DNA of 64,000 bases from Escherichia coli (GTDB lineage: Bacteria; Pseudomonadota; Gammaproteobacteria; Enterobacterales; Enterobacteriaceae). Of the stretch, positions 10,139 through 49,107 are shown piece by piece (position 1 is the stretch's first letter; every line of letters begins with the position of its first letter). The stretch lies in NCBI RefSeq assembly GCF_024223415.1, contig NZ_CP100500.1; one strand, 5' to 3'. Both the position numbers and the translations under genes were made by a program. The notes under the pieces were generated by a model, which worked only from the letters and a program-made list of their open reading frames with translations, had not been told where the DNA came from and did not search any database.

Positions 10139-10202
10139 CGTTATTTTTATCGCACAAGGGTGGGCATCCCTGCCCGTAATGACGTCCCTGAACCTGGGTA
10201 GG

Positions 10203-11184: not shown

Positions 11185-11231
11185 TTGTCTTGTATTTATT
11201 TGTTTTTTAACTTTATTATCAATAAGTTAAA

Positions 11232-32126: not shown

Positions 32127-32128
32127 GA

Positions 32129-34987
32129 TTAACCCTCCGCTCCGGTGATAACAGCAATTACCTGAATGTAGGGTTCTTTTTCAGTCGTCATGGTGTCCTC
32201 AATCCATTCGATATAGCTGTCAAAATTGTGTTCGATTTCGCGTTGTCTCTGCTCTTTACGGCTCTGCTTGACTGACAATTGCTGTTTGTTATCGGCAAAA
32301 TCCAGCTCAAGTTGGCTCAACTGCCGCCCACGCAAAACGTCCAGCTTTTGCAGATGCTCATTCAGTTGCTGGTTAATGTGCGTTTCAAACGCATTCCGAT
32401 CATGGATGAATACCTCCCGGGCATGAGCAATAGCCGCTTCAAGTAAATCCTGCTGGCGTTGGTGATTACGATCTTTACCGCCGCTGTTAGTCAGCTTGTT
32501 ACTCAACTGCGGATGACGTTGTAAAAACTCAGCGAATGGCTGACTGCCGATTAGCGATTCACGGTTAAAGCTCACCACTATCCACGGGTTCACCATCGGA
32601 TGTGATTTACGGTTCGGGAATAACCCGGAAAGAATGAAGTGATCTTCATCGGGTTCAAGCAGGTATGGCAGACGGATAACTGGTGCCTGATGACGACCAA
32701 AAGCCGAAGAGATTTTATCGTCCAGCCACTGCACTACCGGGTTGATTTGCCAGAGATACTGCACATCGGGCCAGGCATGTTGCTCACCGCGAGCGCGCGC
32801 AATCGCGTCGGTGATGACGGTTTTATCCTGACTTAAATAGAGCTGCCAGTTCTCCGGGGCAATTTCAGGCGGTAGCTGGTTGAAGCGGCGGCGTAACTCC
32901 TCCGGAGCCACCAGCGACAAGGTATTATCAGGCAAGGTTTCATACTGGATAGTTTGACCACTGGCTTTCAGGTAACCCAATGCTCTTTCGCAGTACGCCT
33001 GTTCGCTGGCAAACAAGCTGGTGTCTGCTTCGGTGACCATTGAGGCATCGCTGGAAACCGCACTGCATATTTCGCCAAACAGATCGTGTTCGGCGCTTTC
33101 CGAGACGTTGCTGTTCAGCAGTTGATCAAACAGGCTGGCACCATCATCCTGCATCATGAACTCTGCAACCTGCTCTTCTTCCTCTTCCTGGGTAAATTTG
33201 CCGGTAAACTCCGAACTGTCCCCAATGTTCTTCTGCGCCTGTTCGTCTTTGTTGATCAACACTTCCAGTACGCGCATATCGCCATTGATCTGTGGTTCGC
33301 TGGCCTCAGTAAGCAGATAGCGGATTTGAGGCTGATGTTTTTGCCCATAGCGGTCAATACGCCCGTTACGTTGCTGGAATACCATCAACGACCACGGAAT
33401 ATCAAAGTGAATCATTTTGTGGCTAAGGTGATGCAGGTTGATCCCTTCAGATGCCACATCCGAACAAACCAGAAGACGCAACGGCGACTGCGTTTTACCA
33501 AAGGCTTCTACGGTTTCCATCAATACCGTATCGCCCTGATCGCCGCGCAGCGTGGCGATCTGGTCATCTTTCAATTTCAGATCCGCTCGCAGTTGCTGTT
33601 CGAGGAACTCCAGCGTTTTAATACTTTCGGTGAAGATCACCAGGCGATCTTCCGTGTTATTGGCTTTCCAGGCGAGGTCTTTTCGGATGGTGTCGAGCAG
33701 CAACTGGTATTTGCTAAACTGGCTGGCATCAATATTATTCAGCGCCAACAGCAATGACTCCAGTTCGTTGATCTGGCTCTGGCTATTATGATCTTTACGG
33801 CTCTCAAGACGCTTCAGACGATTCGCCACGACGCTGGCACACGCCATCGGGCTGGAAAATAGCGCTTTTTCGAGGGTTATCTTGAACAGACGACCTTTGT
33901 TAGACTGGGCCTGTTCATCGTCATCATCACGGAACTGGCTCTCAACCAGACGACGGTATGCTTCTTCTTCGGCACCGGATGCCAGGCGAGTCAATTTGAC
34001 AATATTGCGCTCGGGAAACTCGCCGGACATCTGATCTTTCACGTCTTTTTTGAAGCGACGGACAACCAGATTTTTATCGGCAAAGTCGGCGTATTCATAC
34101 TCTTTCGGGTTGGCGATCGCCGTCGGGTCAAGCATGTTCATCAGGCTGGCAAAACTTTCAGCCTTACCATCATGCGGCGTTGCTGAAAGCATAATCAGCG
34201 TATCGCTACGCCCGGCGAGCAGTTTTGCCAGTTTACTGCGTAACGAACTGGTTCCACGTTCTGCGACGTTATGGGCCTCATCAATGACAATAATATCCCA
34301 CCAGGCATTTTCCAGATGGTGACGATATTCAATGTCTTGTTTCAGCGTATCGATGGAGATAATGGTCTTGTCAAAATAGTGGAACGGGTTGTGGTTGGTT
34401 GGGATGCGGTTACGCACCTTTTGTAAACCAGCAGAATCCAGGCGGGTCAATGGGATCGCAAAACGGCTCCAGAACTCCTTCTGGAATTGTGTCAGCATCG
34501 ATTTGACCGCCAGAACCAGAATACGTTTTCCGCGCCCACGACGGATCAGCTCCGAAACCAGAATACCCGCTTCCAGTGTTTTACCCAGACCGACAGCGTC
34601 GGCAATGAGTATCCGCTGACGCGGTTGTGCCAGCGCCATCCGCGTAGGATCGAGCTGAAACGGCATGGAATCCATCGCCGCCAGATGACCAAAATGGACT
34701 TTACTGTCTGTCGGTACGCGTTGGCGTAACTGACTTTCGATATACAACTGCGCCGCTTGATAATTGGCGGATTCATCTTCCACCAAATGCGTTTTTGCGG
34801 GATCCAGGATCTCTACTTTTTGTTCCAGTTTGGTCAGAAATAACCCTTCTTTACCGCGCACAAGCTCTGAAATACCATCGCAGGTCAGCAAATACCCACC
34901 ATCACCACTGTCATCCGCCCGGCGAATACGCCATTCGGCATCACGAATAACCACCCGCATACCAGGTGCATAATTTTGCTTATTCAT
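32129..34987 (-). CDS. 952-aa SNF2-family helicase (DrmD-like), first gene of operon
   Basis: SNF2 Walker A LIADAVGLGKTLEAG, DEAH box IIVIDEAHNV, motif III LMLSATPHDG, C-terminal helicase motif …FQQRNGRIDRYGQ. It ends 2 nt before the methyltransferase start. Confidence 0.85.
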   Translation of the reverse strand: MNKQNYAPGMRVVIRDAEWRIRRADDSGDGGYLLTCDGISELVRGKEGLFLTKLEQKVEILDPAKTHLVEDESANYQAAQLYIESQLRQRVPTDSKVHFGHLAAMDSMPFQLDPTRMALAQPRQRILIADAVGLGKTLEAGILVSELIRRGRGKRILVLAVKSMLTQFQKEFWSRFAIPLTRLDSAGLQKVRNRIPTNHNPFHYFDKTIISIDTLKQDIEYRHHLENAWWDIIVIDEAHNVAERGTSSLRSKLAKLLAGRSDTLIMLSATPHDGKAESFASLMNMLDPTAIANPKEYEYADFADKNLVVRRFKKDVKDQMSGEFPERNIVKLTRLASGAEEEAYRRLVESQFRDDDDEQAQSNKGRLFKITLEKALFSSPMACASVVANRLKRLESRKDHNSQSQINELESLLLALNNIDASQFSKYQLLLDTIRKDLAWKANNTEDRLVIFTESIKTLEFLEQQLRADLKLKDDQIATLRGDQGDTVLMETVEAFGKTQSPLRLLVCSDVASEGINLHHLSHKMIHFDIPWSLMVFQQRNGRIDRYGQKHQPQIRYLLTEASEPQINGDMRVLEVLINKDEQAQKNIGDSSEFTGKFTQEEEEEQVAEFMMQDDGASLFDQLLNSNVSESAEHDLFGEICSAVSSDASMVTEADTSLFASEQAYCERALGYLKASGQTIQYETLPDNTLSLVAPEELRRRFNQLPPEIAPENWQLYLSQDKTVITDAIARARGEQHAWPDVQYLWQINPVVQWLDDKISSAFGRHQAPVIRLPYLLEPDEDHFILSGLFPNRKSHPMVNPWIVVSFNRESLIGSQPFAEFLQRHPQLSNKLTNSGGKDRNHQRQQDLLEAAIAHAREVFIHDRNAFETHINQQLNEHLQKLDVLRGRQLSQLELDFADNKQQLSVKQSRKEQRQREIEHNFDSYIEWIEDTMTTEKEPYIQVIAVITGAEG

Positions 34988-35210: not shown

Positions 35211-38200
35211 TTATCCAGCGATAATATAACTCCTAAGGTCATTACCCGGGGCAACAGCTCGCGCTCGCGTGTTTGCCAGCCGTTCAACTTGCTGCGGTAC
35301 TCGCAGGGCAAAATCAAAGAAGGTATCTTCAATACAGCGCCAGTAGCTAAGCCCCATGTCGAGCAGGACATAATGCTGACTGCCATCGCTGAAGGTGACT
35401 GTCAGTTCTCGTCCATGCTCCGTACTCTGGTTATCCCCCGTTAACCAGCTAATTGCTCCCGGCCACGCAGGCCCCAGATATCCTTCTTCAAGTAAAGTGG
35501 TCACAACCTGCTGACGATCTTCCTCATTAAGCCACGCGTTATAGAGAGCGTCGTGTTGGCGAGAGTTGTAATCCAATTTTTTGACGCAAACAGTGAGGCT
35601 GGCGCGTTCCGCCATTCCCTGTTCAACCAGCTCGGTTAAGATTTCACCTAACAAACGCGCCGTGAATGGGCTATTAAGATAACGATCGCTGTACTCAACA
35701 TGCGTTATCTCTTTGTGGCGGGTAAATGCCTGCTTCCAGCCAGCGTGCTGTTGCGTGACTAACGACCAGAAACGCGAACCAAAACCTTCCAGCGGCCCGT
35801 CCAGTTGTTCACAGAGATTGATGCGCACCGCCCCGGTGGGTAAGGCGGGCAGTAAATCTTCTGCACTTAAGGTCTGACCCGAGAAGTTTTTTCCGGACGT
35901 TCCTTTAAGTGTCACTACTGGTGAAGACGCACTTTGTCCCCATAATTCACCAGGGGCAACGGTAGCGCTGTCGTCTGCGGCCCACTGTTGGCTTTGCCCT
36001 TCGCGAGTCACCTGCGCAAGCCAGCGCCCCTTTCCTTGCATGAGTTGCGCAGTGGCAATGGATTTCACTTGTAAGCGTCCTCCCGGCATCGCCGCCAACG
36101 CGGAAAGCTGATGTCTGGAGCTATCAGTTAAGTTTTCCAGCGGCGTGGCCACCAGCAACTCAACATTCCCACCGGAGGAGGCAAACTGGAGCAACTCTTT
36201 AAATAATGGCCATTGGGCAAAGTCCCACTGTTCCTGCGGCCCCGCAAGAACCAGCGAGCAGGAGTCATAAATCTCGCTGTTCAGGCATTGCGCAATACGT
36301 AAACTCAGAGGGTTAGTTTCAACCCGGCTACCATCGCCGAAGTACTGATATTCTGGCGCGAGGTTAAGTCGCTGCAACCGTACATTGGTAAGCAGGGTTA
36401 ATGCATGGTGACGATCTAATCTGTTGACATAATGCTGACTGTCGTAGCTGAGCAAGCAGTGGTGACAAAATTTATCGCAACTGCAATCGAGCAATTTTCT
36501 GGCGTAATTAAAGACATCAGCCCAATGGTCGATCAATTGCACTGCATAACCTGCACCACCCGCATTATTGTCGTATATGAAGATGGAATATCCGGTATAG
36601 CCATTGATATCGCGCGCTTGCTGCGTCGTCACGCCCAGCTCAGTATTTTCGATACCCAATTTATGCGCTAACCCTTCACGCAAAGCGACCGCAAGGGAAC
36701 GCGCGGCAACCTCATCACGGATCAACAGGCCATTATCATCATTGAGTTGCAGCTCAACCATATCTGTACGACTGCTATATCCCAACCACAGATCTTTATG
36801 CACATGACCGTGGCACAATTTATTGCTCCCCTGACGATCGTTACTGCCCCCTCGCAACAGGTAATGCGTATTTTCCCGCTCTGGGTTCTTTAGATTTTCA
36901 GGGGTACGCTGGGGTTGAGTTTGAGATTCTGCCCGACCACATGAGAGGCAAATTGCGTAGCCGTGCCCAAATTCCCCTTCACTGAAGTGGAACAATTCCC
37001 CACTATGGCTAAAACGGTAACGTCCTAGCCCAGCATCGGGTAAAGAAACCCACACCGAAGACGGTACAAGAACACGTGGATCTTTCCAAGGAAGTTGTGC
37101 AGGCATGGATACATCATTATGTGCCTGATAACGAATATCTGTCGCAAAACCAACAGGCTGTAAATAACGCTTCACATCAAGTTGCTGTATATCCGCTTTG
37201 CAGTGACTACATTCGACAGGACGGGTAGTACTGGTTGCCCCCGCACCACATTTACGGCAATGCCAGAACCACGGAATGTGATGATCGCCTGACAGCTCCT
37301 GCCCGCTGGCAAGTACCTTGCCAAGCATAATGCCCGAGGAACGATATACTTTTCCGCCCAATACCACATCTGCACCAGGCGCATACTCGCGTAATGCTGT
37401 AGGTAGATCACGGCTGGGCAATTTTTCAATACGACGAGAAAAGCTTTCTCCCCCTTCATTAGGGTCAGCCTGAGTAGCTTTTATTGCACGACGTTTTTCC
37501 AGCTCATCTGCCGTCAGATAATTGAAATTGACGACGCCAACCGGGAAACCATGCCCCGGCAGGAACGCTTCACTAATGAGTTTAGAAAACAGATATGCAC
37601 CGCGATAATCACGAAGCTGATAAGCGATGGCTTTACCTGCTGGCGTTTCTTCCCACGCGCTGTTATCCGCCTTCAACGCTTCGATATTTTCCAACAGTAT
37701 CGCAAGTTGGCTTCTCCAGCGGATATCAACCTGCTGCATCATTGCTTGTGTGCGGGTCAAGAGCTGGGTTGCCGTCAATGACTTCAGGACGGTTCCCTGA
37801 GTAAGGCGTTTAAGTTTATCCGCCAGCTCATCGGCCTGGTGATTTAACCAATGAAGAAAACGAAGACACTGGCTCTCATCACCTTCAAAGAACCATTTGC
37901 AACTCAGTTTTGTCGCATCAGGTACTTCAGCTCGTAAAAACAGACCTAAAACCAGGGCATTAACATGTCGTTGAACAATACTACTGCTCCCAAAACGAAC
38001 CCGTGGCGCACTGGCAGTAGTGTTGAACGCCCAGAGGGGGTCTTTGAATACCTCCATTCCATGCGCCGTGTTTTTACATAACGTAATGGCAGCAGATGCA
38101 CTCTCTCCACGACGCCCCGCGCGACCTGCACGCTGCAAATAATTTGCCGGCGCTGGAGGAACGTTGTTCATTGCCACCAAACTCATACCACCAATATCCA

Positions 38201-38693
38201 CCCCCATCTCCATGGTCGTGGAACAGTTCAGCACATTAACTTTGCCTGACTTAAATTGTTTTTCATTAAACTGGTTCTGCTCAGGCGTTCTCTGCGCAGA
38301 GTGTTCCTCCAGACGATACCAGCTATCTTTCAGGGCCAGTCGGTCGCTGCGAGTAGACCATAATCCTTCCTCGCGGGCATGTTGAATCAGCGCATTACTT
38401 TCCAGCCACTCCAGACGTTCTTCTCGGGCGATTTCTCCACCACCAGACAAACGCCAGTGACGTACAGGAAGCTCAGGCATTTCAATCAACACTGCTTTTT
38501 CAGGTGCAATTTCTTTGCTACCCGGCAAATACGGAGAGTATCCCAGCAACGTGACGTCTAACGCACGTCGAGTATAGGGGCAACGCCACACTTGCTTTGG
38601 ACTGTAAAATTCAGCCTGTTGTTTAATATCCAGCTGATAACCCGACTCAAACTGACGTAAGCAGGGTCGAATTGCATCCCAGACCTCAATCAT
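35211..38693 (-). CDS. C-terminal segment (1160 aa) of a DruE-like giant helicase; frame open upstream to the A7 tract at 38830-38836
   Basis: Helicase motif VI …ANYLQRAGRAGRRGE… near its N-terminus (matching the C-terminal lobe of the upstream ORF), then Cys clusters (CRKCGAG…CSHCKAD, CLSCGRAES, CSCDKFCHHC). Architecture parallels the 2113-aa protein. Confidence 0.7.
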   Translation of the reverse strand: MIEVWDAIRPCLRQFESGYQLDIKQQAEFYSPKQVWRCPYTRRALDVTLLGYSPYLPGSKEIAPEKAVLIEMPELPVRHWRLSGGGEIAREERLEWLESNALIQHAREEGLWSTRSDRLALKDSWYRLEEHSAQRTPEQNQFNEKQFKSGKVNVLNCSTTMEMGVDIGGMSLVAMNNVPPAPANYLQRAGRAGRRGESASAAITLCKNTAHGMEVFKDPLWAFNTTASAPRVRFGSSSIVQRHVNALVLGLFLRAEVPDATKLSCKWFFEGDESQCLRFLHWLNHQADELADKLKRLTQGTVLKSLTATQLLTRTQAMMQQVDIRWRSQLAILLENIEALKADNSAWEETPAGKAIAYQLRDYRGAYLFSKLISEAFLPGHGFPVGVVNFNYLTADELEKRRAIKATQADPNEGGESFSRRIEKLPSRDLPTALREYAPGADVVLGGKVYRSSGIMLGKVLASGQELSGDHHIPWFWHCRKCGAGATSTTRPVECSHCKADIQQLDVKRYLQPVGFATDIRYQAHNDVSMPAQLPWKDPRVLVPSSVWVSLPDAGLGRYRFSHSGELFHFSEGEFGHGYAICLSCGRAESQTQPQRTPENLKNPERENTHYLLRGGSNDRQGSNKLCHGHVHKDLWLGYSSRTDMVELQLNDDNGLLIRDEVAARSLAVALREGLAHKLGIENTELGVTTQQARDINGYTGYSIFIYDNNAGGAGYAVQLIDHWADVFNYARKLLDCSCDKFCHHCLLSYDSQHYVNRLDRHHALTLLTNVRLQRLNLAPEYQYFGDGSRVETNPLSLRIAQCLNSEIYDSCSLVLAGPQEQWDFAQWPLFKELLQFASSGGNVELLVATPLENLTDSSRHQLSALAAMPGGRLQVKSIATAQLMQGKGRWLAQVTREGQSQQWAADDSATVAPGELWGQSASSPVVTLKGTSGKNFSGQTLSAEDLLPALPTGAVRINLCEQLDGPLEGFGSRFWSLVTQQHAGWKQAFTRHKEITHVEYSDRYLNSPFTARLLGEILTELVEQGMAERASLTVCVKKLDYNSRQHDALYNAWLNEEDRQQVVTTLLEEGYLGPAWPGAISWLTGDNQSTEHGRELTVTFSDGSQHYVLLDMGLSYWRCIEDTFFDFALRVPQQVERLANTRARAVAPGNDLRSYIIAG

Positions 38694-38755
38694 TAAGTGG
38701 TTAACTAACGATTTCCAGTGAGCCTGCTCAGGTTGTATTGCCGGAAAGACTGCGA

Positions 38756-41533
38756 TTAATAGCTTAATGACCCGGTTATAATGGCGATCGCGTATTTGTG
38801 GCCAAAGTTGATCACGTTTCTGCCCTTTGTTTTTTTATCTGGCCCCTGGAGCATTTTTACCGGGAAACGTGCCCCCATCCAGCGAGGGTATTGCTCGTTT
38901 TCGTAAAAAACGGCACTGTTTTCACGGATAAAGAAATCAAGAGTAATCTTCAATAAATTACGCCATTCCGCTAATTGCTTATCGGGATCGGGTAATAATG
39001 TCTTCCAGTCCTGCGGGCAGGTTGTAACTTTATCAATAAATGGATAGTGAATGGCTACCAGACCCAGACTTTCGAGGGTCCAGGCATTTTTAGGGCGGCG
39101 ACCAAACTCGCTGTATAAACAAAAATCTGCAAACTGTTGTTTAGTAAGATCAAGCCCAGACAATTCTTTAAAACTGCCTCTCATTCTATCGGCAAGGTCC
39201 ACACTGCCAACCAGCTGTTCAGACAGCGTTTGCCATGACATGGTTTTCTTCTGCTGATTGCCAGAGTTAACCTGAAGTATTTGCATCGCTTCAGCATGCT
39301 CCGGGCTTAAGGAACTCACCATCGGCTCAATAATTTTAAGTGACTGAATGTCCGCCGGGCTAAGCTCCTCATTCGCAGCCATCGCTTTTTTCAGCGCGTC
39401 GATGGAATTTTTTAAAGGGAGGACAGAAAACTGGCTAATAACTTTCTCTAACAGTGCACAGTGTGCCGGGCTGAGTTTTGCTGAAGGCTCTGTAATATTT
39501 GCCAGCTCCTGGTAACAAAGAGCTCGCAACGTCGCTTTATCGGCATCCTGCTGTAAGCGGGCTGAAATGCGAGCGGTACCCTGACGCGAATCCGTAAAGG
39601 TGAGCAAGCGTCGACCATTAAACGGTCCTAACTGCTCTTCTCTTGTTTGCGGTAATGGAGAAAACTCCAGCAGAGTAGGAATAATTTCATTTAAAAAAAA
39701 GGGCGCGCCGAGCCGAAGCGGACGGAATAAAGGATTATTTTTCCGTTGAGTGTCACCACAGCAAACACAAGCAAAGGAGTTATTGCGCCCCTCACCTCGA
39801 GATTCCGGTCTTAACAGGTTTATTTCATAGTGCTTTTGCGCTTCACTATCAATTTTCCCCGCCGTCGTTTCTTCCAGTGAAATGATATATTTTTCACCAT
39901 CGCTCGCAATCAGACGATCAAATTGAGAGTTATTGTCTAATTCGTCGTTGTCTTCATCTTCAGAATAAACATCTACATCAAGAGCAAACTCATCCACTTC
40001 GGCAGCGGCTGGTTGCGCTACCAACCAGTTCGTTCCATCACCGCGCATCTCCTCTTTGGCAGACAAATAAGCTGAACCACACCCGGAGCAACGTAAAACT
40101 TCAAATACCGGCGCTCCACAGTCACAATATTGGCGCTGCTCAAACCATACCTGACCAAATGGCCAGTCACTCTGATTTAATTCATGTGCTTTATGTGAGC
40201 ATTGTTTGTTTGAACATGCCCATAGACCCGCCAGTGTTCTGATAAACCCATGCATACGTAATGGCGTAAAAGCCAGTTCACCTTCTCGCGATCTTGCCAT
40301 TAGATCGAGGAGTTGCAGTAGCTCACGGTGATTAATATCTGGCCAGGTTCTTCTGGCAACATTGAGCAACTCACTCAAACGTACTGCCTGCCGTCCGGGA
40401 TGAGTTAACGCCTGACGCAATTGCTGGGCCACACGGTAATGACAAAGCTGTTGGTAAAGATCCTGAGGGCTCAGGGATTTAAGAGAAGTTAAAGATGTGG
40501 GGTATTCATGACGAATCAGCGACTCCGATACCCGCGGTATTTGTCGATAACCGCGAACCACTTTGACATCACGTTCTGTAACGCCCGCGAGATCAGCGAC
40601 AAATTTAGCAAGCTCCTTATTACCTTCAGGAGAGTCTTCACCAATAGTGGCAGAGGTCGCGATAATCTGCACAGGTTTATCTGTGCCGGGTCCAACATTG
40701 AAAGCCTGCATAACACGACGTAAAAGCAGCGCTAACTCAGCAGCCTGAGAACCAATATAACTATGGGCTTCATCCAGGACGATATACTTTAACATCCCCT
40801 GAGACTTTTCGATGATTGGGGCATCTTTACGACGAATCAGCATATATTCCAGCATGGTGGTATTCGTCACCATGATGGAAGGTGGTGCTTCATAAATGGC
40901 TTCCCGACTCAAAGCTTGTTCAGGTACTTTCAACTGATCTTCCTGAACTTCGTATTTGGTATGCCGGGTTTCGCCATTATATAGCGCGAAGCGTATTTTC
41001 CCCTTAAATCCGCGCGTCCATTCGCGAAGCCGCTCCTGTTGGCTGTTAATTAATGCATTTAACGGATACAAGAAAATAGCTTGTGTCCCTGTTAGTGACT
41101 GGCGGGTCGATTTTTGCTGACGAATAAGATCTTCCAGAACCGGTACCATAAAGCATTCTGTTTTCCCGGATCCCGTACCGCTGCTCACTAACAAGGATTT
41201 TTTGTCTTCCAGAATCGTTCGCCACGCAGTAAGTTGATGACGAAATGGCACTGGCGCTTTGCTCAATGCATCAACCAGCGGGCTGGAGATCAGCTTGTCC
41301 CGCAAATCCTCCATTGTTTCATCCGCAGGCATCCAGCCGAATGTACTTTCGAATACCGGGTCTGCAAGCAGTGACCCCTCCTGACCGGGAGGCTGAAAAT
41401 ATTGTGATTCCAGATAATGAGTCAACGACTTGCTCCGCAATGCCAACTGACTTACCACCGACCTCACCGCACGCTGATGAAGCTGATTTAGAAGTGGCGC
41501 ATAATGCAGTTGCTGAACGTCCATCAATGACAT
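38756..41533 (-). CDS. N-terminal segment (925 aa) of a DruE-like giant helicase; ends 2 codons... stop shortly after an A7 tract
   Basis: Motif I VSSGTGSGKTECFMVPVL, motif II VLDEAHSYIG, internal Cys clusters as in the 2113-aa paralog. It is in a different frame from the downstream 1160-aa ORF by exactly one nucleotide. Confidence 0.7.
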   Translation of the reverse strand: MSLMDVQQLHYAPLLNQLHQRAVRSVVSQLALRSKSLTHYLESQYFQPPGQEGSLLADPVFESTFGWMPADETMEDLRDKLISSPLVDALSKAPVPFRHQLTAWRTILEDKKSLLVSSGTGSGKTECFMVPVLEDLIRQQKSTRQSLTGTQAIFLYPLNALINSQQERLREWTRGFKGKIRFALYNGETRHTKYEVQEDQLKVPEQALSREAIYEAPPSIMVTNTTMLEYMLIRRKDAPIIEKSQGMLKYIVLDEAHSYIGSQAAELALLLRRVMQAFNVGPGTDKPVQIIATSATIGEDSPEGNKELAKFVADLAGVTERDVKVVRGYRQIPRVSESLIRHEYPTSLTSLKSLSPQDLYQQLCHYRVAQQLRQALTHPGRQAVRLSELLNVARRTWPDINHRELLQLLDLMARSREGELAFTPLRMHGFIRTLAGLWACSNKQCSHKAHELNQSDWPFGQVWFEQRQYCDCGAPVFEVLRCSGCGSAYLSAKEEMRGDGTNWLVAQPAAAEVDEFALDVDVYSEDEDNDELDNNSQFDRLIASDGEKYIISLEETTAGKIDSEAQKHYEINLLRPESRGEGRNNSFACVCCGDTQRKNNPLFRPLRLGAPFFLNEIIPTLLEFSPLPQTREEQLGPFNGRRLLTFTDSRQGTARISARLQQDADKATLRALCYQELANITEPSAKLSPAHCALLEKVISQFSVLPLKNSIDALKKAMAANEELSPADIQSLKIIEPMVSSLSPEHAEAMQILQVNSGNQQKKTMSWQTLSEQLVGSVDLADRMRGSFKELSGLDLTKQQFADFCLYSEFGRRPKNAWTLESLGLVAIHYPFIDKVTTCPQDWKTLLPDPDKQLAEWRNLLKITLDFFIRENSAVFYENEQYPRWMGARFPVKMLQGPDKKTKGRNVINFGHKYAIAIITGSLSY

Positions 41534-44500
41534 ACTCCTGCTTGTTCAAAATAATATTGATAGATTACACCTAATTGCTGTGGGGCTTGCTGATAGTGAA
41601 ATTCAAAAAGCGCAGACAGTTGATGTATCAGGTTATTATCTTTTTGGGTTAACAGCGCTGCGACTAACATCAAATTAAAACGTTTTTCAAGCCGTGAGTG
41701 ATATTTATCTTCAATCCAAAGCTTATTAAAAACAGATTTTAACTCTGGAGTAATAGCACTAGACCAAAGTTCTTTAGGGAAGATACTGATACGCCCAAAG
41801 CTGTCGGGGTTCCTTAATAGCATCTGTTTAGCTTCATTAAACTGCTCACGACTAACAGTTGGCAATACATCACAACCGGTTGGTAGGCTCTCACTATATG
41901 TAAGTAACATATTCGCAATCGGAGCCAGCCGACGATCGATATGTGCACGATGGTTCATAAAAGCAATAAAGGGTTGCAATATATGTAATGCTAATGTTTT
42001 ATCGTTAATCTGTTTCTCCAGATAAGTCCAACATTTTTGGAAAACATCTTTCCAGATTGAAACGGGAATCCATCCCCATGAAAAGGGTAATTCTTCCTGT
42101 ATATCATAAATCGTATCGCTATCACCAGAAAGACATGATGATATTAACAATTGAACAACCACGCGGTAATTACTCGAAATACCTCTGAACAAGTCCAGAT
42201 CCAGCAAGGATAAGCCATTATTCATTTTGTATTTCTTAATATACTCTGTTAATAAACAGCAATAATTTTGCAATGGGTTGTTATCTATTTCAAAAATTAG
42301 CTCATTAAAATTTTTTTTGCGCTGTTCTGGGTCTGCTTCGCATAGAGCATTTAGTAATAAATCATTTGTCTGCAATACAGGTAGCATCCATTTAATTACT
42401 GGTGCAATGCGAGCTGTACCATCAAGTTTTCCCACAATTAACCATGGACTATCCTGAACATTCAGAGCTGAAAGATCATAAGCAAACTCATCTTTTTTTA
42501 ACAATGATATGTGTAAGCCAGGATTCTTAAGAGAAATAGCATCAACAACCAGTTCGTCTATTCTATTTGCAGGAAAAACAACAGAATTTTTTATATCAAC
42601 CAGTAACCCTTGATCGTGTTCAATAAAACTACCATCGTAGCGTTTAATATTGAGTGTTGCTTTATCCTTTCCAAATCTGTCAGAGTAAAAATCAACACAT
42701 AATGTACTATTGCTGTTCCATGCACATGCCAGCATAGCATTTAGCAAATTATAGTTCTCATAAAGTGAAATTTGTTGTAATTTGTCATTGCGTCCTGATA
42801 AAAGAGGAAGGTCGGCATGTAAATAGCGGAATTTTTCAGCTACTGGATTTTCATCCAATAACTCGATATTAAGATATCCTCTTCCAGCACATGATATGGT
42901 TAATAACTCAGCATCTATTCCATGCAAATGTGCTATAGATGCCACACCATCAAAATGAACAGAACCATCATTAGTTACAAATCGGCCACCGCTAACCGGC
43001 TTAGGTAATAATAGTTTAAGATTAGAACCATCTTTCCAGGAGACCCGTAAATCAACGGTATTTTCCAGCATCAGCGATGAATTATAATAAATAGCACACT
43101 CGTTTTGTGAATAATCGGACTTAAGTGTTACTTTTTCATTGTTTAAATATTTATCAATTCTAGTATCCGTTATACCAGAAAGCATAATAATGCCTTGCTG
43201 AGCACTCTCAGGTATAATATTAATATCGAAGTCTGCTGGTAAAACTACAACTTTACCGCTAAATAAAACCTCATCATTAACTATTCGCCGGACTTCTATC
43301 TGTCCTTTTGGCATTTCTGATGCGACAGAATACCAGGCATTGTTACCTGAACGAATGGAACGCCAAAAAAGTTCTTTCTCCGGTACAATGCCATATTGCA
43401 GATCCTTTTTCCAACCGATCTTCGGCCAGGCTCGATGGACAGGATAATCCGATTTAACCAGTTCAACTTCTGTCGATTTAATATAATATTCAATCGCAGA
43501 ATCATAAAGTTGCTGGGTGCGAATTGTACAAACTGCACCATCATGTAAAACAACGCTAAATACTCCACTTATTTTAGTTAAGCTGCGTTCACTGTTTTTC
43601 AGCAACCTTGGGATATCAAACTCACCTTCTCCACTAATATCTAAATGGCTATTTTTCGGTAGCGAAATAAACAGAGCATTTAGCCTGGAACTCACAGACC
43701 CCATACCAACAAGTTTTAGCTGCGATTCACTCTCATTCATCGCTTCAAAAACCCAGGGAAGTTCTTCAGTAAGTTCATAACCGCCTTTTGGAATTGTGTG
43801 ACCTAACAGAATTGGACCTTCATGAAGCGACAATGAGATTTCGGCCATTGCATCTGCACCAGAGAGTTTTTGCATCGCAATAGGTAATAACTCGACCCGC
43901 CAATCTTGCTGCTCATAACGGCTTAGCATTGCCAACCTTGCCCCGCCATTTTTCCATTTTCCTGAAATGATGAGTCGGGTCTGCTCCGGCTGAATATGGC
44001 ATTCAAACAAAGAGGTTAACTGTTCTGTACGCATTGTGGCCGGGAATCGGAACCGGGCATCGCAATACCAACTGTCATCAACATCGACCCAGATTCTTTC
44101 AACCTGAAGACTACTTGCACTGCGTATTTCAGAAGATTGAGATAGTAATCGCCTTACAATCTCTGCAGCATTCGCTTCGGGGAGAACGAGTGGAAGTTTA
44201 AGATGCCAGTCTGGAGAGAGCTTACGTAATGCAGAAACGGGATCACTGCTTTGAGGAGGATGCTCACTAAGTAATCGGCAGAGAGTCTCGCAGAATTCAC
44301 CGGCTATTTCATAGACCAGTTCGTTTTGCATTGTGACAGGAATCGTATCGCCTAATTCTTGTGCAATTTTAGCGGCAGGATATTGAGATGATTGCCCACG
44401 AAGCGCCTGATATATCCTTCTGAAATAGGTAATCAAATAACCGCTCTCATTTTCAATCATGCGGATAGGCAAACCACCTTCACAAGCCAGTGTATGCAGA

Positions 44501-44883
44501 TAACCCGAAGCTTGTCCCAGGTTTCTTATCTTTCTTTTCCAGTAGCGAATGCCATCATTAACCAGCTTCTGTCGATGAACATACGGAACTTTCCAGTTAA
44601 TAGAATCTAAAATTGTGTCCCATTTAGGGTGTCCGACCGTATGAGTCCGGCGGATAAACTCTGCGGCATATATGCTAAATAGAACATCGCTATAGGAAAT
44701 GAATATCGTTCTTGGATAACTACGGGGGGCATATGTACGCAGTAGTTCTGCCAAACTTTCGTACTCTGTATCAGTACAACGGTAAGCATATAACGCCCGT
44801 CCATCAGCTCCGGATAATGAACGGCGACTAAAAAACATGTTAAGCCATTGCAAAAGTGGGTTAACTGGAGTTTTCACAAGCAA
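41524..44883 (-). CDS. 1119-aa protein of unknown function (DruH-like partner of the giant helicase)
   Basis: Large ORF with no motif recognisable by eye. Its stop overlaps the start of the 925-aa helicase ORF by ~10 nt, implying co-translation. Position and size fit the partner gene of Druantia type III. Confidence 0.5.
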   Translation of the reverse strand: MLVKTPVNPLLQWLNMFFSRRSLSGADGRALYAYRCTDTEYESLAELLRTYAPRSYPRTIFISYSDVLFSIYAAEFIRRTHTVGHPKWDTILDSINWKVPYVHRQKLVNDGIRYWKRKIRNLGQASGYLHTLACEGGLPIRMIENESGYLITYFRRIYQALRGQSSQYPAAKIAQELGDTIPVTMQNELVYEIAGEFCETLCRLLSEHPPQSSDPVSALRKLSPDWHLKLPLVLPEANAAEIVRRLLSQSSEIRSASSLQVERIWVDVDDSWYCDARFRFPATMRTEQLTSLFECHIQPEQTRLIISGKWKNGGARLAMLSRYEQQDWRVELLPIAMQKLSGADAMAEISLSLHEGPILLGHTIPKGGYELTEELPWVFEAMNESESQLKLVGMGSVSSRLNALFISLPKNSHLDISGEGEFDIPRLLKNSERSLTKISGVFSVVLHDGAVCTIRTQQLYDSAIEYYIKSTEVELVKSDYPVHRAWPKIGWKKDLQYGIVPEKELFWRSIRSGNNAWYSVASEMPKGQIEVRRIVNDEVLFSGKVVVLPADFDINIIPESAQQGIIMLSGITDTRIDKYLNNEKVTLKSDYSQNECAIYYNSSLMLENTVDLRVSWKDGSNLKLLLPKPVSGGRFVTNDGSVHFDGVASIAHLHGIDAELLTISCAGRGYLNIELLDENPVAEKFRYLHADLPLLSGRNDKLQQISLYENYNLLNAMLACAWNSNSTLCVDFYSDRFGKDKATLNIKRYDGSFIEHDQGLLVDIKNSVVFPANRIDELVVDAISLKNPGLHISLLKKDEFAYDLSALNVQDSPWLIVGKLDGTARIAPVIKWMLPVLQTNDLLLNALCEADPEQRKKNFNELIFEIDNNPLQNYCCLLTEYIKKYKMNNGLSLLDLDLFRGISSNYRVVVQLLISSCLSGDSDTIYDIQEELPFSWGWIPVSIWKDVFQKCWTYLEKQINDKTLALHILQPFIAFMNHRAHIDRRLAPIANMLLTYSESLPTGCDVLPTVSREQFNEAKQMLLRNPDSFGRISIFPKELWSSAITPELKSVFNKLWIEDKYHSRLEKRFNLMLVAALLTQKDNNLIHQLSALFEFHYQQAPQQLGVIYQYYFEQAGVCH

Positions 44884-45094
44884 CCTGCCTTCCTTTGATA
44901 CAATTCGTAACAGGTTACTATCATCATAAAAAAGCTCAACCCGATGAACTCGCTAAAAATGAGACAAATCATTTATATCTCGAAAAAACTTGTTACAATC
45001 ATGAGCGCTACACCGAACTTAACCATATAAATTATGTGTGTTTTGTTTATTTTTTAAACGATTACAACTATCCATTATTTACACAGGTATCAAA

Positions 45095-46747
45095 ATGTTA
45101 GCGCAGCTTTTTGAGCAGTTGTTTCAATCGATAGACTCTACACTGATCACCAATATTTTCATCTGGGCTGTTATATTCGTATTTTTATCAGCGTGGTGGT
45201 GTGACAAAAAAAATATACATAGTAAGTTTAGAGAATATGCTCCAACCTTAATGGGGGCATTAGGTATTCTGGGTACTTTCATTGGTATTATTATTGGTTT
45301 ACTCAATTTTAATACCGAAAGTATTGATACCAGCATCCCCGTATTATTAGGTGGCCTAAAAACAGCATTCATTACAAGCATTGTAGGTATGTTTTTTGCC
45401 ATTTTATTTAATGGAATGGATGCTTTCTTTTTTGCCAATAAACGAAGTGCGTTAGCAGAAAATAACCCTGAATCTGTTACACCTGAACATATCTATCATG
45501 AATTAAAAGAGCAGAACCAGACTCTGACTAAATTAGTCTCGGGTATTAACGGTGATAGTGAAGGTTCTCTTATTGCTCAAATAAAATTACTACGTACTGA
45601 GATTAGCGATTCCTCGCAGGCACAATTAGCTAATCACACTCATTTCAGTAATAAGCTTTGGGAACAACTTGAACAATTTGCAGATCTAATGGCAAAAGGT
45701 GCTACAGAACAAATTATTGATGCTTTGCGACAAGTCATTATTGATTTTAATCAAAATTTAACTGAACAGTTTGGTGAAAACTTTAAAGCTCTTGATGCCT
45801 CTGTAAAAAAACTTGTTGAGTGGCAGGGAAATTATAAAACGCAAATTGAGCAGATGTCAGAACAATATCAACAAAGTGTCGAGTCCCTGGTTGAAACAAA
45901 AACTGCGGTTGCAGGGATTTGGGAAGAATGTAAAGAAATTCCTCTGGCTATGTCTGAACTGCGTGAAGTGCTTCAGGTGAACCAACATCAAATCAGCGAA
46001 CTCTCCCGCCATTTAGAAACCTTTGTCGCCATCCGCGATAAAGCTACAACCGTATTACCTGAAATACAGAACAAAATGGCTGAAGTGGGTGAACTGCTGA
46101 AATCCGGAGCTGCAAATGTTAGTGCATCTCTTGAGCAAACCAGCCAGCAAATACTTCTTAATGCAGATTCAATGCGCGTTGCCCTGGATGAAGGTACCGA
46201 AGGATTCAGACAATCGGTTACCCAAACACAACAAGCATTTGCCTCGATGGCACATGATGTCAGCAATTCCTCCGAAACCTTAACCAGCACGTTAGGTGAA
46301 ACAATTACTGAAATGAAACAAAGTGGTGAAGAATTCCTGAAATCACTAGAGTCGCACTCGAAAGAATTGCATAGAAATATGGAACAAAATACGACGAATG
46401 TGATTGATATGTTCAGTAAGACTGGTGAAAAGATTAACCATCAACTATCCAGTAATGCCGATAATATGTTTGATTCAATCCAGACATCATTTGATAAGGC
46501 AAGTGCAGGGCTGACTTCTCAAGTCAGAGAATCAATTGAAAAATTTGCTCTATCCATCAACGAGCAGTTACATGCTTTTGAGCAAGCAACTGAACGTGAA
46601 ATGAACCGTGAAATCCAATCATTAGGTAATGCTCTGCTTTCAATCAGCAAAGGTTTTGTCGGTAACTATGAAAAACTTATTAAAGATTACCAAATAGTTA
46701 TGGGGCAGTTACAAACATTAATTTCTGCTAATAAACATCGCGGGTAA
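45095..46747 (+). CDS. zorA: Zorya ZorA-like (MotA/ExbB-like membrane domain with long coiled-coil tail)
   Basis: N-terminal TM helices (…LMGALGILGTFIGIIIGLLNF…, …FITSIVGMFFAILFNG…) then ~400 aa of heptad-rich low-complexity sequence. The start is taken at ATG 45095 (AGG RBS); the ORF track uses an upstream GTG at 45038. Confidence 0.75.
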   Translation: MLAQLFEQLFQSIDSTLITNIFIWAVIFVFLSAWWCDKKNIHSKFREYAPTLMGALGILGTFIGIIIGLLNFNTESIDTSIPVLLGGLKTAFITSIVGMFFAILFNGMDAFFFANKRSALAENNPESVTPEHIYHELKEQNQTLTKLVSGINGDSEGSLIAQIKLLRTEISDSSQAQLANHTHFSNKLWEQLEQFADLMAKGATEQIIDALRQVIIDFNQNLTEQFGENFKALDASVKKLVEWQGNYKTQIEQMSEQYQQSVESLVETKTAVAGIWEECKEIPLAMSELREVLQVNQHQISELSRHLETFVAIRDKATTVLPEIQNKMAEVGELLKSGAANVSASLEQTSQQILLNADSMRVALDEGTEGFRQSVTQTQQAFASMAHDVSNSSETLTSTLGETITEMKQSGEEFLKSLESHSKELHRNMEQNTTNVIDMFSKTGEKINHQLSSNADNMFDSIQTSFDKASAGLTSQVRESIEKFALSINEQLHAFEQATEREMNREIQSLGNALLSISKGFVGNYEKLIKDYQIVMGQLQTLISANKHRG

Positions 46748-46753
46748 TCGATC

Positions 46754-47461
46754 ATGGATAAGATTATAGGGAAACAATTACCTAAAAAAGATCAAGATAA
46801 TGAACATTGGGTATCCATGTCAGACCTAATGGCAGGGCTGATGATGGTTTTTATGTTCATATCTATTGCTTATATGCACTACGTACGTATTGAAAAAGAA
46901 AAAATTAAAGAAGTTGCCGTAGCCTACGAGAATGCTCAGTTACAGCTTTATAATGCTCTGGATATTGAGTTTGCAAAGGATTTACAAGACTGGGATGCAG
47001 AGATCGATAAACAGACTCTGGAGGTTCGATTTAAATCACCGGATGTTTTATTTGGCTTAGGAAGCACAGAGCTAAAACCAAAGTTTAAACTCATTCTTGA
47101 CGACTTCTTTCCTCGCTACCTAAAAGTTCTAGATAATTATCAGGAACATATTACTGAAGTCCGCATTGAAGGTCACACAAGTACTGACTGGACAGGAACA
47201 ACGAATCCTGATATTGCTTATTTTAATAATATGGCACTATCGCAAGGTCGTACACGTGCAGTATTACAATACGTTTATGACATAAAAAATATCGCGACAC
47301 ACCAACAATGGGTTAAAAGTAAATTTGCCGCAGTAGGTTATTCATCTGCACATCCCATTCTTGATAAAACCGGCAAGGAGGATCCTAATCGCTCTCGTCG
47401 TGTCACCTTCAAAGTTGTAACAAATGCCGAGTTGCAGATTAGAAAGATTATTCAGGAGTAA
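46754..47461 (+). CDS. zorB: Zorya ZorB-like (MotB-like membrane anchor with OmpA-type peptidoglycan-binding domain)
   Basis: N-terminal TM (…LMAGLMMVFMFISIAYM…) and OmpA-like motif …RIEGHTSTDW…NMALSQGRTRAV…NRSRRVTFKV. Confidence 0.75.
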   Translation: MDKIIGKQLPKKDQDNEHWVSMSDLMAGLMMVFMFISIAYMHYVRIEKEKIKEVAVAYENAQLQLYNALDIEFAKDLQDWDAEIDKQTLEVRFKSPDVLFGLGSTELKPKFKLILDDFFPRYLKVLDNYQEHITEVRIEGHTSTDWTGTTNPDIAYFNNMALSQGRTRAVLQYVYDIKNIATHQQWVKSKFAAVGYSSAHPILDKTGKEDPNRSRRVTFKVVTNAELQIRKIIQE

Positions 47462-47464
47462 GAG

Positions 47465-48568
47465 ATGAAATTATCTATCGACCTTTCAGAACTTATTCAA
47501 TTAGGGAAGAAAATGTTACCAGAAGGAGTCGATTTTTTTCTGGATGAATCCCCTATTGACTTTGATCCTATAGATATTGAGTTATCCACGGGTAAAGAAG
47601 TTAGTATCGAAGATCTTGACCCTGGTAGCGGGCTTATCTCTTATCATGGCCGCCAGGTTCTTTTATATATTCGGGACCATTCAGGGCGTTATGATGCGGC
47701 TATCGTAGATGGCGAAAAAGGAAAACGTTTTCATATTGCCTGGTGCAGAACTCTTGATGAAATGCGCCATAAAAATCGATTTGAAAGGTATCATGCAACT
47801 AACCGCATAGATGGTTTATTCGAAATTGATGATGGTTCAGGTCGGAGCCAGGATGTTGATTTACGGGTATGTATGAATTGCCTCGAACGACTTAATTATA
47901 AAGGAAGTATTGATAAACAACGAAAAAGAGAGATTTTTAAATCATTCTCATTAAATGAGTTTTTTTCAGATTATAGTACCTGTTTTCGTCATATGCCTAA
48001 GGGTATCTATGACAAAACAAATAGTGGGTATGTCGAAAACTGGAAGGAAATATCTAAAGAAATACGAGAAAAGGCCAATTATGTTTGTAATGATTGTGGC
48101 GTGAATTTATCAACCGCCAAAAACTTGTGCCATGTCCATCATAAAAATGGCATCAAATATGATAATCACCATGAAAACCTTCTTGTTCTGTGCAAGGATT
48201 GCCATCGAAAACAGCCCCTCCACGAAGGTATATTCGTTACCCAAGCTGAGATGGCTATCATTCAACGTTTACGTTCCCAACAAGGGCTATTAAAAGCAGA
48301 ATCCTGGAATAAAATATATGACCTGACTGATCCATCAGTGCATGGTGATATTAATATGATGCAACATAAAGGCTTTCAACCTCCTGTTCCTGGGTTAGAT
48401 CTTCAAAACTCAGAACATGAAATTATTGCAACCGTAGAAGCTGCATGGCCAGGCCTTAAAATTGCAGTTAACCTTACTCCCGCCGAAGTCGAAGGATGGA
48501 GAATATATACCGTGGGTGAGCTGGTTAAAGAAATACAAACCGGAGCCTTTACGCCAGCAACTTTGTAA
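47465..48568 (+). CDS. zorE: Zorya type II effector ZorE-like HNH endonuclease
   Basis: HNH motif CNDCGVNLSTAKNLCHVHHKNGIKYDNHHENLLVLCKDCH. It follows zorB by 3 nt. Confidence 0.7.
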   Translation: MKLSIDLSELIQLGKKMLPEGVDFFLDESPIDFDPIDIELSTGKEVSIEDLDPGSGLISYHGRQVLLYIRDHSGRYDAAIVDGEKGKRFHIAWCRTLDEMRHKNRFERYHATNRIDGLFEIDDGSGRSQDVDLRVCMNCLERLNYKGSIDKQRKREIFKSFSLNEFFSDYSTCFRHMPKGIYDKTNSGYVENWKEISKEIREKANYVCNDCGVNLSTAKNLCHVHHKNGIKYDNHHENLLVLCKDCHRKQPLHEGIFVTQAEMAIIQRLRSQQGLLKAESWNKIYDLTDPSVHGDINMMQHKGFQPPVPGLDLQNSEHEIIATVEAAWPGLKIAVNLTPAEVEGWRIYTVGELVKEIQTGAFTPATL

Positions 48569-48753: not shown

Positions 48754-49032
48754 CTTTGTAGACAGGAGACAGTCACAATGAATAAAACAATAAATTGATG
48801 TCGCACGCGCCGATGGGCATGGCGGGTAATGTAACTTTTGTACACAACGGCAAGGCTTATGTTACTGGCGGTGTTAACCAGAACATCTTCAATGGCTATT
48901 TTGAAGATCTCAACGATGCTGGAGAATATTTAGCAGCTATAGACAAGATCAATGCCTATTATTTCGACAAAAAAGCAGAAGATTATTTCTTCAATAAGTT
49001 TTTGTTGTCTTTTGATCCCTCAACACAGCAAT
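48754..49032 (+). pseudogene. diverged nanM remnant (first ~37 bp of nanM fused to an internal ~240-bp nanM segment), preceded by a nanC-promoter-like GGTATA repeat at 48687-48700
   Basis: 48754-48790 matches 15079-15115 (gtagacaggagacagtcacaatgaataaaacaataa). 48791-49032 matches 15460-15700 at roughly 90 percent identity by eye. Same orientation as the intact nanM. Confidence 0.8.
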
Positions 49033-49107
49033 GGATCTTCACTTGCAGGCTTGAACAGCAGAAAATTTGCGAGCATGATCGCAATTATTTCACTGCCAGG
49101 GATATCA

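What the first reader, a model, noticed from the sequence alone, without database searches (positions are those of the whole stretch)
38680..38840. Single-nucleotide frameshift inside an A7 homopolymer splits the DruE-like giant helicase into 925-aa and 1160-aa ORFs
Seen in sequence: the 925-aa ORF (motifs I-II) ends at 38756 and the 1160-aa ORF (motif VI plus Cys clusters) starts at 38693 in a different frame. The downstream frame is open upstream all the way into the A7 tract (plus-strand T7 at 38830-38836), where it is closed by a TAA formed by the last base of the GAT codon and the first two As. Adding one A to the tract fuses the two ORFs without any stop (…GPDKKNKGQKRDQLWPQIRDRHYNRVIKLLIAVFPAIQPEQAHWKSLVNHLMIEVWDAIRP…). 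The fusion would be roughly 2100 aa, matching the intact 2113-aa paralog. This is either a sequencing error, recent pseudogenisation, or slipped-strand phase variation of a defence gene.
Basis: seen in the sequence. Interest (0 to 1): 0.7.

Follow-up and report, generated by a model that had tools for sequence, protein, structure and literature searches.

The report
Frameshifted Druantia helicase gene (druE)
One base lost from a run of eight A's has broken the large helicase gene (druE) of a known E. coli anti-phage system, an ordinary, recently arisen and inherited pseudogene and not a sequencing error or a demonstrated on/off switch.

Summary
On the minus strand an A7 run (window 38830-38836) separates a 925-aa ORF and a 1160-aa ORF. 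These are the N- and C-terminal parts of one gene, druE of Druantia type III (= Z5898/YjiV family; solved structure 9tu7). Adding one A gives a 2104-aa protein identical to the intact DruE of the closest relative, NCTC10444.

The lesion is real and inherited. Independent short-read assemblies of two SNP-distinct relatives carry A7 while the neighbouring 8-nt runs are intact. Rooting with an outgroup gives one A8→A7 event followed by four more SNPs.

Among 523 complete E. coli genomes with the locus, at least 501 have A8, 3-4 have A7 (annotated "frameshifted") and none has A9. A7 sits on at least 5 druE haplotype backgrounds, so the run is a slippage hot spot. Other 8-nt runs in the operon behave the same way; one is shortened in 55 O157:H7 genomes. 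The run is what Lys-Lys-Asn coding yields by chance.

Published truncation data imply the 922-aa product is inactive.

Verdict: an ordinary recent pseudogene by replication slippage. Reversible phase variation is unsupported but not excluded. Low interest.

The parts
38830..38836 (-). A7 homopolymer (T7 on the plus strand). This is the site of the 1-nt deletion from the ancestral A8, which encodes Lys897-Lys898-Asn899 (AAA AAA AAC).
   Evidence: One search shows the sequence. NCTC10444 has A8 here. The alignment of 12 alleles is.
35211..41524 (-). The whole druE pseudogene of Druantia type III (6314 nt; 6315 nt when intact). The only lesion is the missing A.
   Evidence: The repaired translation is 2104/2104 identical to NCTC10444 WP_113850912.1. 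PADLOC DruE3 hits have E=4.5e-295 and E=0. PDB 9tu7 matches at full length.
38756..41533 (-). N-terminal ORF: 925 aa from the first ATG, or 922 aa from the conventional start at 41524. It holds DruE residues 1-898 (RecA1 motifs I/II and the inserted domains) plus a 24-aa out-of-frame tail TKGRNVINFGHKYAIAIITGSLSY. The stop codon is at 38756-38758.
   Evidence: Pfam families DEAD and YjiV_N are recorded on the identical Logan product.
35211..38693 (-). C-terminal ORF of 1160 aa, starting at the internal Met945 of DruE. It holds RecA2 (Helicase_C), the OB/MZB Zn module and the PLD domains. There is no Shine-Dalgarno sequence upstream (GTTAACCACTTAATG).
   Evidence: Pfam families Helicase_C and MZB are recorded.
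38694..38829 (-). The stretch encoding DruE residues 899-944. It is now read only out of frame and so is absent from both ORF products. It includes the published duplex-DNA contact residues K900 and R914.
   Evidence: Residue roles are from PMC13192584, section 9.
41524..44883 (-). druH, the partner gene (STY4851/ECs_5259 = YjiT family). It is intact, and its stop overlaps the druE start.
   Evidence: PADLOC DruH3 E=0 and 2548 bits. NCBIfam YjiT_fam 983.9 bits against a cut-off of 150.
39693..39700 (-). The second 8-nt run in druE (T8 on the coding strand). It is intact in the window and serves as an internal control. It is shortened to 7 in 55 complete genomes of an O157:H7 clade.
42311..42318 (-). 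The 8-nt run in druH (A8 on the coding strand). It is intact in the window and serves as an internal control. It is 7 in 3-4 complete genomes.

Best explanation
The region is druE, the 2104-aa YprA-family helicase-nuclease of the E. coli Druantia type III (DruH-DruE) anti-phage system. A single slipped-strand replication error shortened a coding A8 run to A7.

The reading frame shifts after Lys898. Translation ends 24 codons later, giving a ~922-aa fragment. The fragment keeps RecA1 and the inserted domains but lacks RecA2 (motif VI), the OB/MZB zinc module and the PLD nuclease domains.

The deletion arose once, in a sublineage that branches just after NCTC10444, and has been inherited since. 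The gene carries no second lesion, so the pseudogene is young. Druantia III is therefore most likely switched off in this strain. druH, Zorya II and ARMADA II next to it look intact.

Shown: the lesion, its inheritance, its recurrence in other backgrounds, and its rarity. Inferred: the slippage mechanism, and loss of function (from published truncation and mutant data on the same protein).
For: Identity of the gene:
- The two ORFs cover positions 4-865 and 907-2051 of one DruE3 profile.
- The repaired ORF is 2104/2104 identical to the intact NCTC10444 DruE.
- It matches PDB 9tu7 at full length.

The lesion is not an error:
- The window differs from NCTC10444 by only 14 SNPs and 2 one-base indels in 49.5 kb. 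The other indel is NCTC10444's own frameshift.
- Logan assemblies SRR19977205 (plus 4 samples; 0 differences in 23.5 kb) and SRR36098277 (4 SNPs from the window, 2 from NCTC10444) both carry A7. The other 8-nt runs on the same contigs are intact.

Single origin and stable inheritance:
- The outgroup EC974 polarises 5 of the 6 SNP sites; at the sixth, 27200, it could not be scored. The order is outgroup(A8) > NCTC10444(A8) > SRR36098277(A7) > window(A7).

Census of 523 complete E. coli genomes with the locus:
- A8 is exact in 382 + 119 genomes.
- A7 is exact in 1 + 2 or 3 genomes. RM12579, FDAARGOS_1285 and PI12 are all annotated 'frameshifted'.
- A9 is found in 0.

Hot spot: A7 occurs on at least 5 druE haplotype backgrounds, including an IncY plasmid.

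Loss of function (literature):
- DruE 1-1171 lacks DNA binding and ATPase activity and does not protect.
- RecA2 R1135/R1138 and the MZB cysteines are required (bioRxiv 10.64898/2026.05.13.724758).
- K900 and R914 contact DNA (PMC13192584).
Against: - No reads, expression data or phage assays exist for this strain, so loss of function is inferred.
- Some −1 alleles in public genomes are probably assembly errors. JL05 has 3 of its 4 runs shortened. RM12579 is an old assembly of unverified homopolymer accuracy. The count of independent events could therefore be lower than 5.
- Recurrence at the same run is also what a contingency locus would show.
- Low-level restoration of the frame by transcriptional or ribosomal slippage on A7 cannot be excluded.
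Confidence: 0.85

Rival explanations
1. Reversible phase variation. The A8/A7 run would be a contingency tract that switches Druantia III off and on by slipped-strand mispairing. Subpopulations would escape the cost of the system or accept useful mobile DNA, and later revert.
For: - The same −1 change recurs on at least 5 druE backgrounds.
- All three 8-nt runs of druHE show −1 alleles in public genomes: 55, 3-4 and 3-4 genomes.
- Homopolymer switching of defence genes is known in other bacteria (general knowledge). Tracts as short as 7 nt act this way in mycobacteria (abstracts listed).
Against: - At least 501/523 genomes have A8, only 3-4 have A7, and none has A9.
- Changes are seen in one direction only.
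- A7 is stably inherited across 4 further SNPs in 23.5 kb, with no reversion.
- The number of 8-nt runs is as expected from protein sequence and codon usage: 2 observed against 1.03 expected, P=0.24. A8 arises at Lys-Lys-Asn in 59% of synonymous shuffles.
- The tract is not special relative to other 8-nt runs.
- E. coli is normally mismatch-repair proficient, and 7-8-nt runs are short for a contingency locus (general knowledge).
Confidence: 0.08
2. Sequencing or assembly error. The strain really has A8 and an intact druE.
For: Homopolymer miscalls are common. Clear examples exist at this very locus: JL05 has 3 of 4 runs at 7, and SRR19977217 has all three druHE runs at 7.
Against: - The window has all its other 8-nt runs intact, and no other gene-breaking indel against NCTC10444 in 49.5 kb.
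- The same A7 is found in independent short-read assemblies of two SNP-distinguishable genotypes, with intact control runs.
- It maps as a single derived character on the SNP tree.
Confidence: 0.03
3. The lesion is tolerated. Either the two polypeptides (1-898 plus tail, and 945-2104) reassemble into an active helicase, or a −1 slip of tRNA-Lys or RNA polymerase on A7 restores enough full-length DruE for defence.
For: - A −1 P-site slip on AAA AAA A followed by reading AAC would recreate the exact wild-type sequence DKKNKG (read from the sequence).
- A-runs are known slippery sites (general knowledge).
- A promoter-like match lies inside druE, upstream of the C-terminal ORF at 39210-39183.
Against: - The 80 nt downstream show no stimulatory RNA structure (z = +0.55).
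- There is no Shine-Dalgarno sequence before Met945.
- Residues 899-944, including the DNA contacts K900 and R914, would be missing from a split enzyme.
- Published truncations lacking RecA2, or lacking the N-terminal part, do not protect.
- The allele is a recent mutation, not a conserved arrangement.
Confidence: 0.04

Closest known systems
E. coli Druantia type III-A DruE (Z5898 of EDL933, OI-172; YjiV family; PDB 9tu7-9tuc)
   Same: It is the same gene. It is about 99.5% identical in DNA to the O157:H7/O55:H7 allele. It has the same operon partner druH and the same Zorya II and ARMADA II neighbours.
   Different: The window allele has A7 instead of A8 at codons 897-899. It therefore encodes a truncated 922-aa product, plus an orphan C-terminal ORF.
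RefSeq 'frameshifted' druE pseudogenes in RM12579, FDAARGOS_1285 and PI12
   Same: They carry the identical lesion, A8→A7 at the same run. NCBI's pipeline annotates them as frameshifted pseudogenes.
   Different: They have different haplotype backgrounds, 34-128 SNPs away in druE, so they are independent events or, for some, possibly errors.
Homopolymer-tract phase variation of restriction-modification and defence genes (phasevarions of Haemophilus, Neisseria, Helicobacter and Campylobacter; Streptomyces Pgl)
   Same: The same type of mutation, a length change of a coding homopolymer, switches a defence gene off.
   Different: Those tracts are typically longer, show many length variants within and between strains, and revert at high rates. 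Here more than 95% of genomes share one length, only −1 is seen, there is no reversion, and the tract is not enriched. The comparison rests on general knowledge, not on a test here.
ARMADA type II ArmC (the 2113-aa neighbour, window 20854-27195)
   Same: It is a YprA-family helicase of similar size with DEAD, Helicase_C and MZB modules. It is a distant homologue of DruE.
   Different: It belongs to a different system (ArmA-D), gives only partial and weak DruE profile matches, and has a C-terminal HNH-like region where DruE has PLD domains. It is not a recent paralog and not the reference for the intact length.

Membership tests
Druantia type III DruE (YprA-family helicase-nuclease) | Full-length similarity to the DruE3 family profile | tested here: met
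   PADLOC PDLC00037. The N-terminal ORF matches with E=4.5e-295 over profile positions 4-865. The C-terminal ORF matches with E=0 over positions 907-2051 of 2055.
Druantia type III DruE (YprA-family helicase-nuclease) | SF2 helicase core (DEAD/DEAH RecA1 plus Helicase_C RecA2) followed by the MZB/DUF1998 zinc module | tested here: met
   Pfam DEAD and YjiV_N are recorded on the N-terminal fragment, and Helicase_C and MZB on the C-terminal fragment of the identical Logan products. PDB 9tu7 matches at full length. In the window these modules sit on two separate ORFs.
Druantia type III DruE (YprA-family helicase-nuclease) | Encoded directly downstream of druH in one operon | tested here: met
   DruH3 at 41524-44883 matches with E=0, and its stop overlaps the druE start. 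NCBIfam YjiT_fam scores above its cut-off.
Druantia type III DruE (YprA-family helicase-nuclease) | An intact single open reading frame, that is, a functional member | tested here: not met
   A −1 frameshift at 38830-38836 puts a stop at 38756. It is a pseudogene of the family, not a functional member.
Druantia type III DruE (YprA-family helicase-nuclease) | Anti-phage activity dependent on DruE | not testable with these tools
   This needs plaque assays. Published data on truncated DruE predict loss of activity.
Phase-variable (contingency) locus | Several tract lengths present among closely related genomes or within a strain | tested here: not met
   A8 is found in at least 501/523 genomes, A7 in 3-4 and A9 in 0. 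Variation within a strain cannot be tested without reads.
Phase-variable (contingency) locus | Reversibility (OFF to ON reversion) | tested here: not met
   The rooted SNP order shows one A8→A7 change, then inheritance through 4 further SNPs with no A8 nested inside. The sample is small, and the reversion rate itself is not testable here.
Phase-variable (contingency) locus | Tract longer or more frequent than coding needs explain | tested here: not met
   Synonymous-codon shuffles give 1.03 runs of 8 or more against 2 observed (P=0.24). A8 at K897-K898-N899 arises in 59% of shuffles.
Programmed −1 frameshift or transcriptional slippage site | A conserved out-of-frame arrangement with a stimulatory element (downstream structure) | tested here: not met
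   The out-of-frame state is rare and recent. The downstream 80 nt fold no better than shuffles (z=+0.55).

The most novel reading that the evidence does not exclude
The 8-nt A/T runs in druH and druE might act together as low-rate, population-level off-switches for Druantia III in E. coli. Recurrent −1 slips occur on at least 5 backgrounds at this run, and a whole O157:H7 clade is off at the other druE run, so roughly 11% of complete genomes with the locus are affected. Under this reading the slips would be selected, for example to relieve a cost, to admit plasmids or prophages, or to change motility. They could occasionally be reversed, or be partly rescued by slippage on the A7 run.
Probability: 0.1. 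Interest if true: 0.5.

Novelty: already known. Interest (0 to 1): 0.12.

Why it matters
For annotation, the two ORFs should be merged into one druE pseudogene. The strain should be scored as Druantia III-defective even though defence-finder tools may still report DruH and DruE hits. The published Druantia-Zorya and Druantia-ARMADA synergies would be expected to be lost.

More broadly, the locus gives a small, concrete example of how short homopolymers repeatedly knock out a large defence gene in natural E. coli, including a large O157:H7 clade. No new biology is implied.

Tried and rejected
1. **Genuine two-gene arrangement.** Rejected. Homologues are single 2104-aa genes in NCTC10444, SMS-3-5, EC974 and a Klebsiella plasmid, and in at least 501/523 genomes by tract length.

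2. **Assembly-wide homopolymer error.** Rejected. There are only 2 indels against NCTC10444 in 49.5 kb, and all other 8-nt runs are intact.

3. **Look-up of the exact 925-aa ORF.** It was not in the protein collection because gene callers use the start 3 codons downstream. The 1160-aa ORF was found and led to the Logan contigs.

4. **Cluster members of 943-952 aa.** They looked like other truncations of DruE, but turned out to be the neighbouring SNF2 helicase ArmA, a clustering artefact.

5. **Frameshift-stimulating RNA structure downstream of the run.** None was found.

6. **Enrichment of long runs in druE and druH.** None was found.

7. **NCBIfam.** It has no DruE-specific model above cut-off and gives only weak generic helicase hits.

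8. **Promoter and terminator scan.** Uninformative.

9. **More divergent homologues in the plasmid collection, to test tract conservation.** All 16 hits were at least 97.8% identical, so nothing was learned about deep conservation. Two plasmid copies with the shortened run did turn up.
Full report
**Observation**

The minus strand at window 38840-38826 reads CCA GAT AAA AAA ACA AAG. The A7 run lies at 38830-38836.

- The 925-aa ORF (38756-41533) runs through the tract and ends 24 codons later...GPDKKTKGRNVINFGHKYAIAIITGSLSY*.
- The frame of the 1160-aa ORF (35211-38693) is open back to a TAA formed at GA[T AA]A.
- Inserting one A gives an uninterrupted 2104-aa product from the ATG at 41524.

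The description is accurate in every coordinate.

**What the gene is**

PADLOC places the two ORFs on consecutive parts of one DruE3 profile. The N-terminal ORF covers positions 4-865 (E=4.5e-295). The C-terminal ORF covers 907-2051 of 2055 (E=0). The upstream 1119-aa gene is DruH3 (E=0, 2548 bits), and it scores above the NCBIfam YjiT_fam cut-off.

The locus is E. coli. 523-524 of 5426 complete genomes carry it. In NCTC10444, SMS-3-5, EC974 and a Klebsiella plasmid the gene is one 6315-nt CDS.

The repaired window protein has these matches:
- It is 2104/2104 identical to NCTC10444 WP_113850912.1.
- It matches the solved structure 9tu7 ("DEAD/DEAH box helicase") over its whole length.
- It is the gene studied as Z5898 in EDL933 (PMC3681947).
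- It is the DruE of three 2025-2026 preprints.

That system comprises ArmA (952 aa), ArmB (1643 aa), ArmC (2113 aa) and ArmD (704 aa), at window 18743-34987. It is a different system of the same helicase superfamily.

**Is the deletion real?**

The window is a near-clone of NCTC10444, with 14 SNPs and two 1-nt indels in 49.5 kb.
- One indel is NCTC10444's own frameshift in armA (GGG→GG).
- The other is T7 against T8 at the tract.
- All other 8-nt runs in the window are intact.

So there is no sign of assembly-wide homopolymer error.

The exact 1160-aa product exists in an NCBI assembly and in independent Logan assemblies.
- SRR19977205 (the same contig is seen in 4 samples) is identical to the window over 23.5 kb.
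- SRR36098277 differs from the window by 4 SNPs and from NCTC10444 by 2 SNPs.
- Both have A7, and the other two 8-nt runs of druHE on the same contigs are intact.

The outgroup EC974 has the NCTC10444 allele at all five scorable SNP sites. The rooted order is therefore outgroup(A8) → NCTC10444(A8) → SRR36098277(A7, one derived SNP) → window(A7, four more derived SNPs). This means one deletion that was then inherited, with no reversion.

**Population picture**

Exact-match queries of 87-89 nt gave these counts:

| Tract length | Reference-type flanks | SMS-3-5-type flanks |
|---|---|---|
| A8 | 382 | 119 |
| A7 | 1 (RM12579) | 2-3 (FDAARGOS_1285, PI12) |
| A9 | 0 | not queried |

About 18 genomes have other flank variants and were not resolved. 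The three A7 genomes are annotated "frameshifted" by PGAP.

An alignment of 12 alleles shows A7 on at least five druE backgrounds, 14-147 SNPs apart. Each has a close A8 relative. The backgrounds are the window lineage, RM12579, FDAARGOS_1285, PI12 and the IncY plasmid RCS32TR557_p. The run is therefore a recurrent −1 hot spot, although some of these cases may be sequencing errors.

It is not a special run.
- The other 8-nt run of druE (window 39693-39700) is 7 in 55 complete genomes. These form an O157:H7 clade that includes FRIK944, which is annotated frameshifted.
- The druH run is 7 in 3-4 genomes.
- Two records have nearly all runs shortened, which points to error-prone data or a mutator: JL05 and SRR19977217.

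Synonymous-codon shuffles show that the number of 8-nt runs is as expected (2 observed, 1.03 expected, P=0.24). Lys897-Lys898-Asn899 yields A8 in 59% of shuffles. The tract is thus a by-product of coding, in a DNA-contact region. PMC13192584 lists K900 and R914 as duplex contacts.

**Consequence**

The 922-aa product keeps residues 1-898. It lacks RecA2, the OB/MZB module and the PLD domains.

In the Himpich et al. preprint:
- DruE 1-1171 had no DNA affinity or ATPase activity.
- Only DruE 1-1723 complemented a ΔdruE strain.
- Mutations in RecA2 (R1135/R1138) or in the MZB cysteines abolished defence.
- Deleting druE abolished protection.

The C-terminal ORF starts at internal Met945 without a Shine-Dalgarno sequence. 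Residues 899-944 are encoded in neither product.

The 80 nt after the run fold no better than shuffles (z=+0.55), so nothing suggests programmed recoding. A −1 slip on the A7 run would recreate the wild-type sequence, so trace full-length protein cannot be excluded.

I infer that Druantia III is inactive in this strain. druH, Zorya II and ARMADA II appear intact.

**Verdict**

This is a real, young, clonally inherited frameshift pseudogene of a well-characterised defence gene, produced by slippage at an 8-nt run. The identical lesion is already annotated as "frameshifted" in RefSeq genomes.

Reversible phase variation is not supported by tract-length diversity, direction of change, phylogeny or tract statistics. 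It can only be excluded with reads or rate measurements.

Confidence in the pseudogene reading is about 0.85. Interest is low.

Noticed in passing
window 39693-39700 (druE, coding-strand T8): This second 8-nt run is intact in the window but shortened to 7 in 55 complete E. coli genomes. They form an O157:H7 clade (FRIK944, FRIK2455, ECP19-2498, MB9-1 and others) whose druE is annotated 'frameshifted'. Druantia III would then be off in a sizeable O157:H7 sublineage, while EDL933 and Sakai are intact at the A8 tract studied here (38830-38836).
   Followed up: partly
L006/L017 (Logan SRR19977217), equivalent to window 39693 and 42311: This run has the same haplotype as the window. It carries extra −1 deletions in both other 8-nt runs of druHE, and its armC is called as 1601 aa instead of 2113 aa. 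It is either a mutator isolate or error-prone reads. The sister run SRR19977205 is clean.
   Followed up: partly
window 15451-15695 and 48791-49035: [quoted passage not shown] The 33.1-kb Logan contigs end at about these repeats, by coordinate arithmetic.
   Followed up: partly
window 18743-34987 (minus strand): Four co-directional genes of 704, 2113, 1643 and 952 aa match the published ARMADA type II layout: ArmD (GajB/UvrD-like), ArmC (YprA-like, with a C-terminal HNH-like hit), ArmB (PglX-like methyltransferase) and ArmA (SNF2/BrxHII-like). All are intact in the window.
   Followed up: partly
window 34386 (armA); L003 34819-34820: NCTC10444 has GG where the window and all Logan relatives have GGG. 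This breaks its armA, which is annotated frameshifted. It is private to that PacBio-era assembly and may be an error.
   Followed up: partly
L012 (E. coli JL05, NZ_CP049936.1): druE, druH and zorA2 are all annotated frameshifted, and 3 of the 4 eight-nt runs are 7. It is a likely homopolymer-error assembly, and a caution for any census of such alleles.
   Followed up: partly
L013, L014, L015 (IncY E. coli plasmids and a Klebsiella IncFIB plasmid): The Druantia III plus ARMADA block is also carried on plasmids (16 PLSDB records). Plasmid RCS32TR557_p has the A7 allele. Plasmid pYUYZMPE6-2 shows no length difference from the window allele over the retained part, so it probably also has A7. Its druE 5' end is missing, and an IS903B transposase gene lies just upstream. 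In these plasmid alleles Asn899 is AAT, not AAC.
   Followed up: partly
window 45038-48568 (plus strand): Zorya type II (zorA2, zorB2, zorE) lies divergent from druHE and is intact. zorA2 has its own A8 run at 45206-45213.
   Followed up: no
window 4156-12938: The complete type 1 fimbrial operon is present (fimH to fimA), together with the fimE and fimB recombinase genes. The classical invertible fimS phase switch should lie between fimE and fimA (about 10.8-11.2 kb). Its orientation was not examined.
   Followed up: no
window 48952-49980 (plus strand): This ORF corresponds to a gene annotated 'phosphorothioated DNA-binding restriction endonuclease' in NCTC10444 and EC974. It sits just outside the island repeat.
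   Followed up: no
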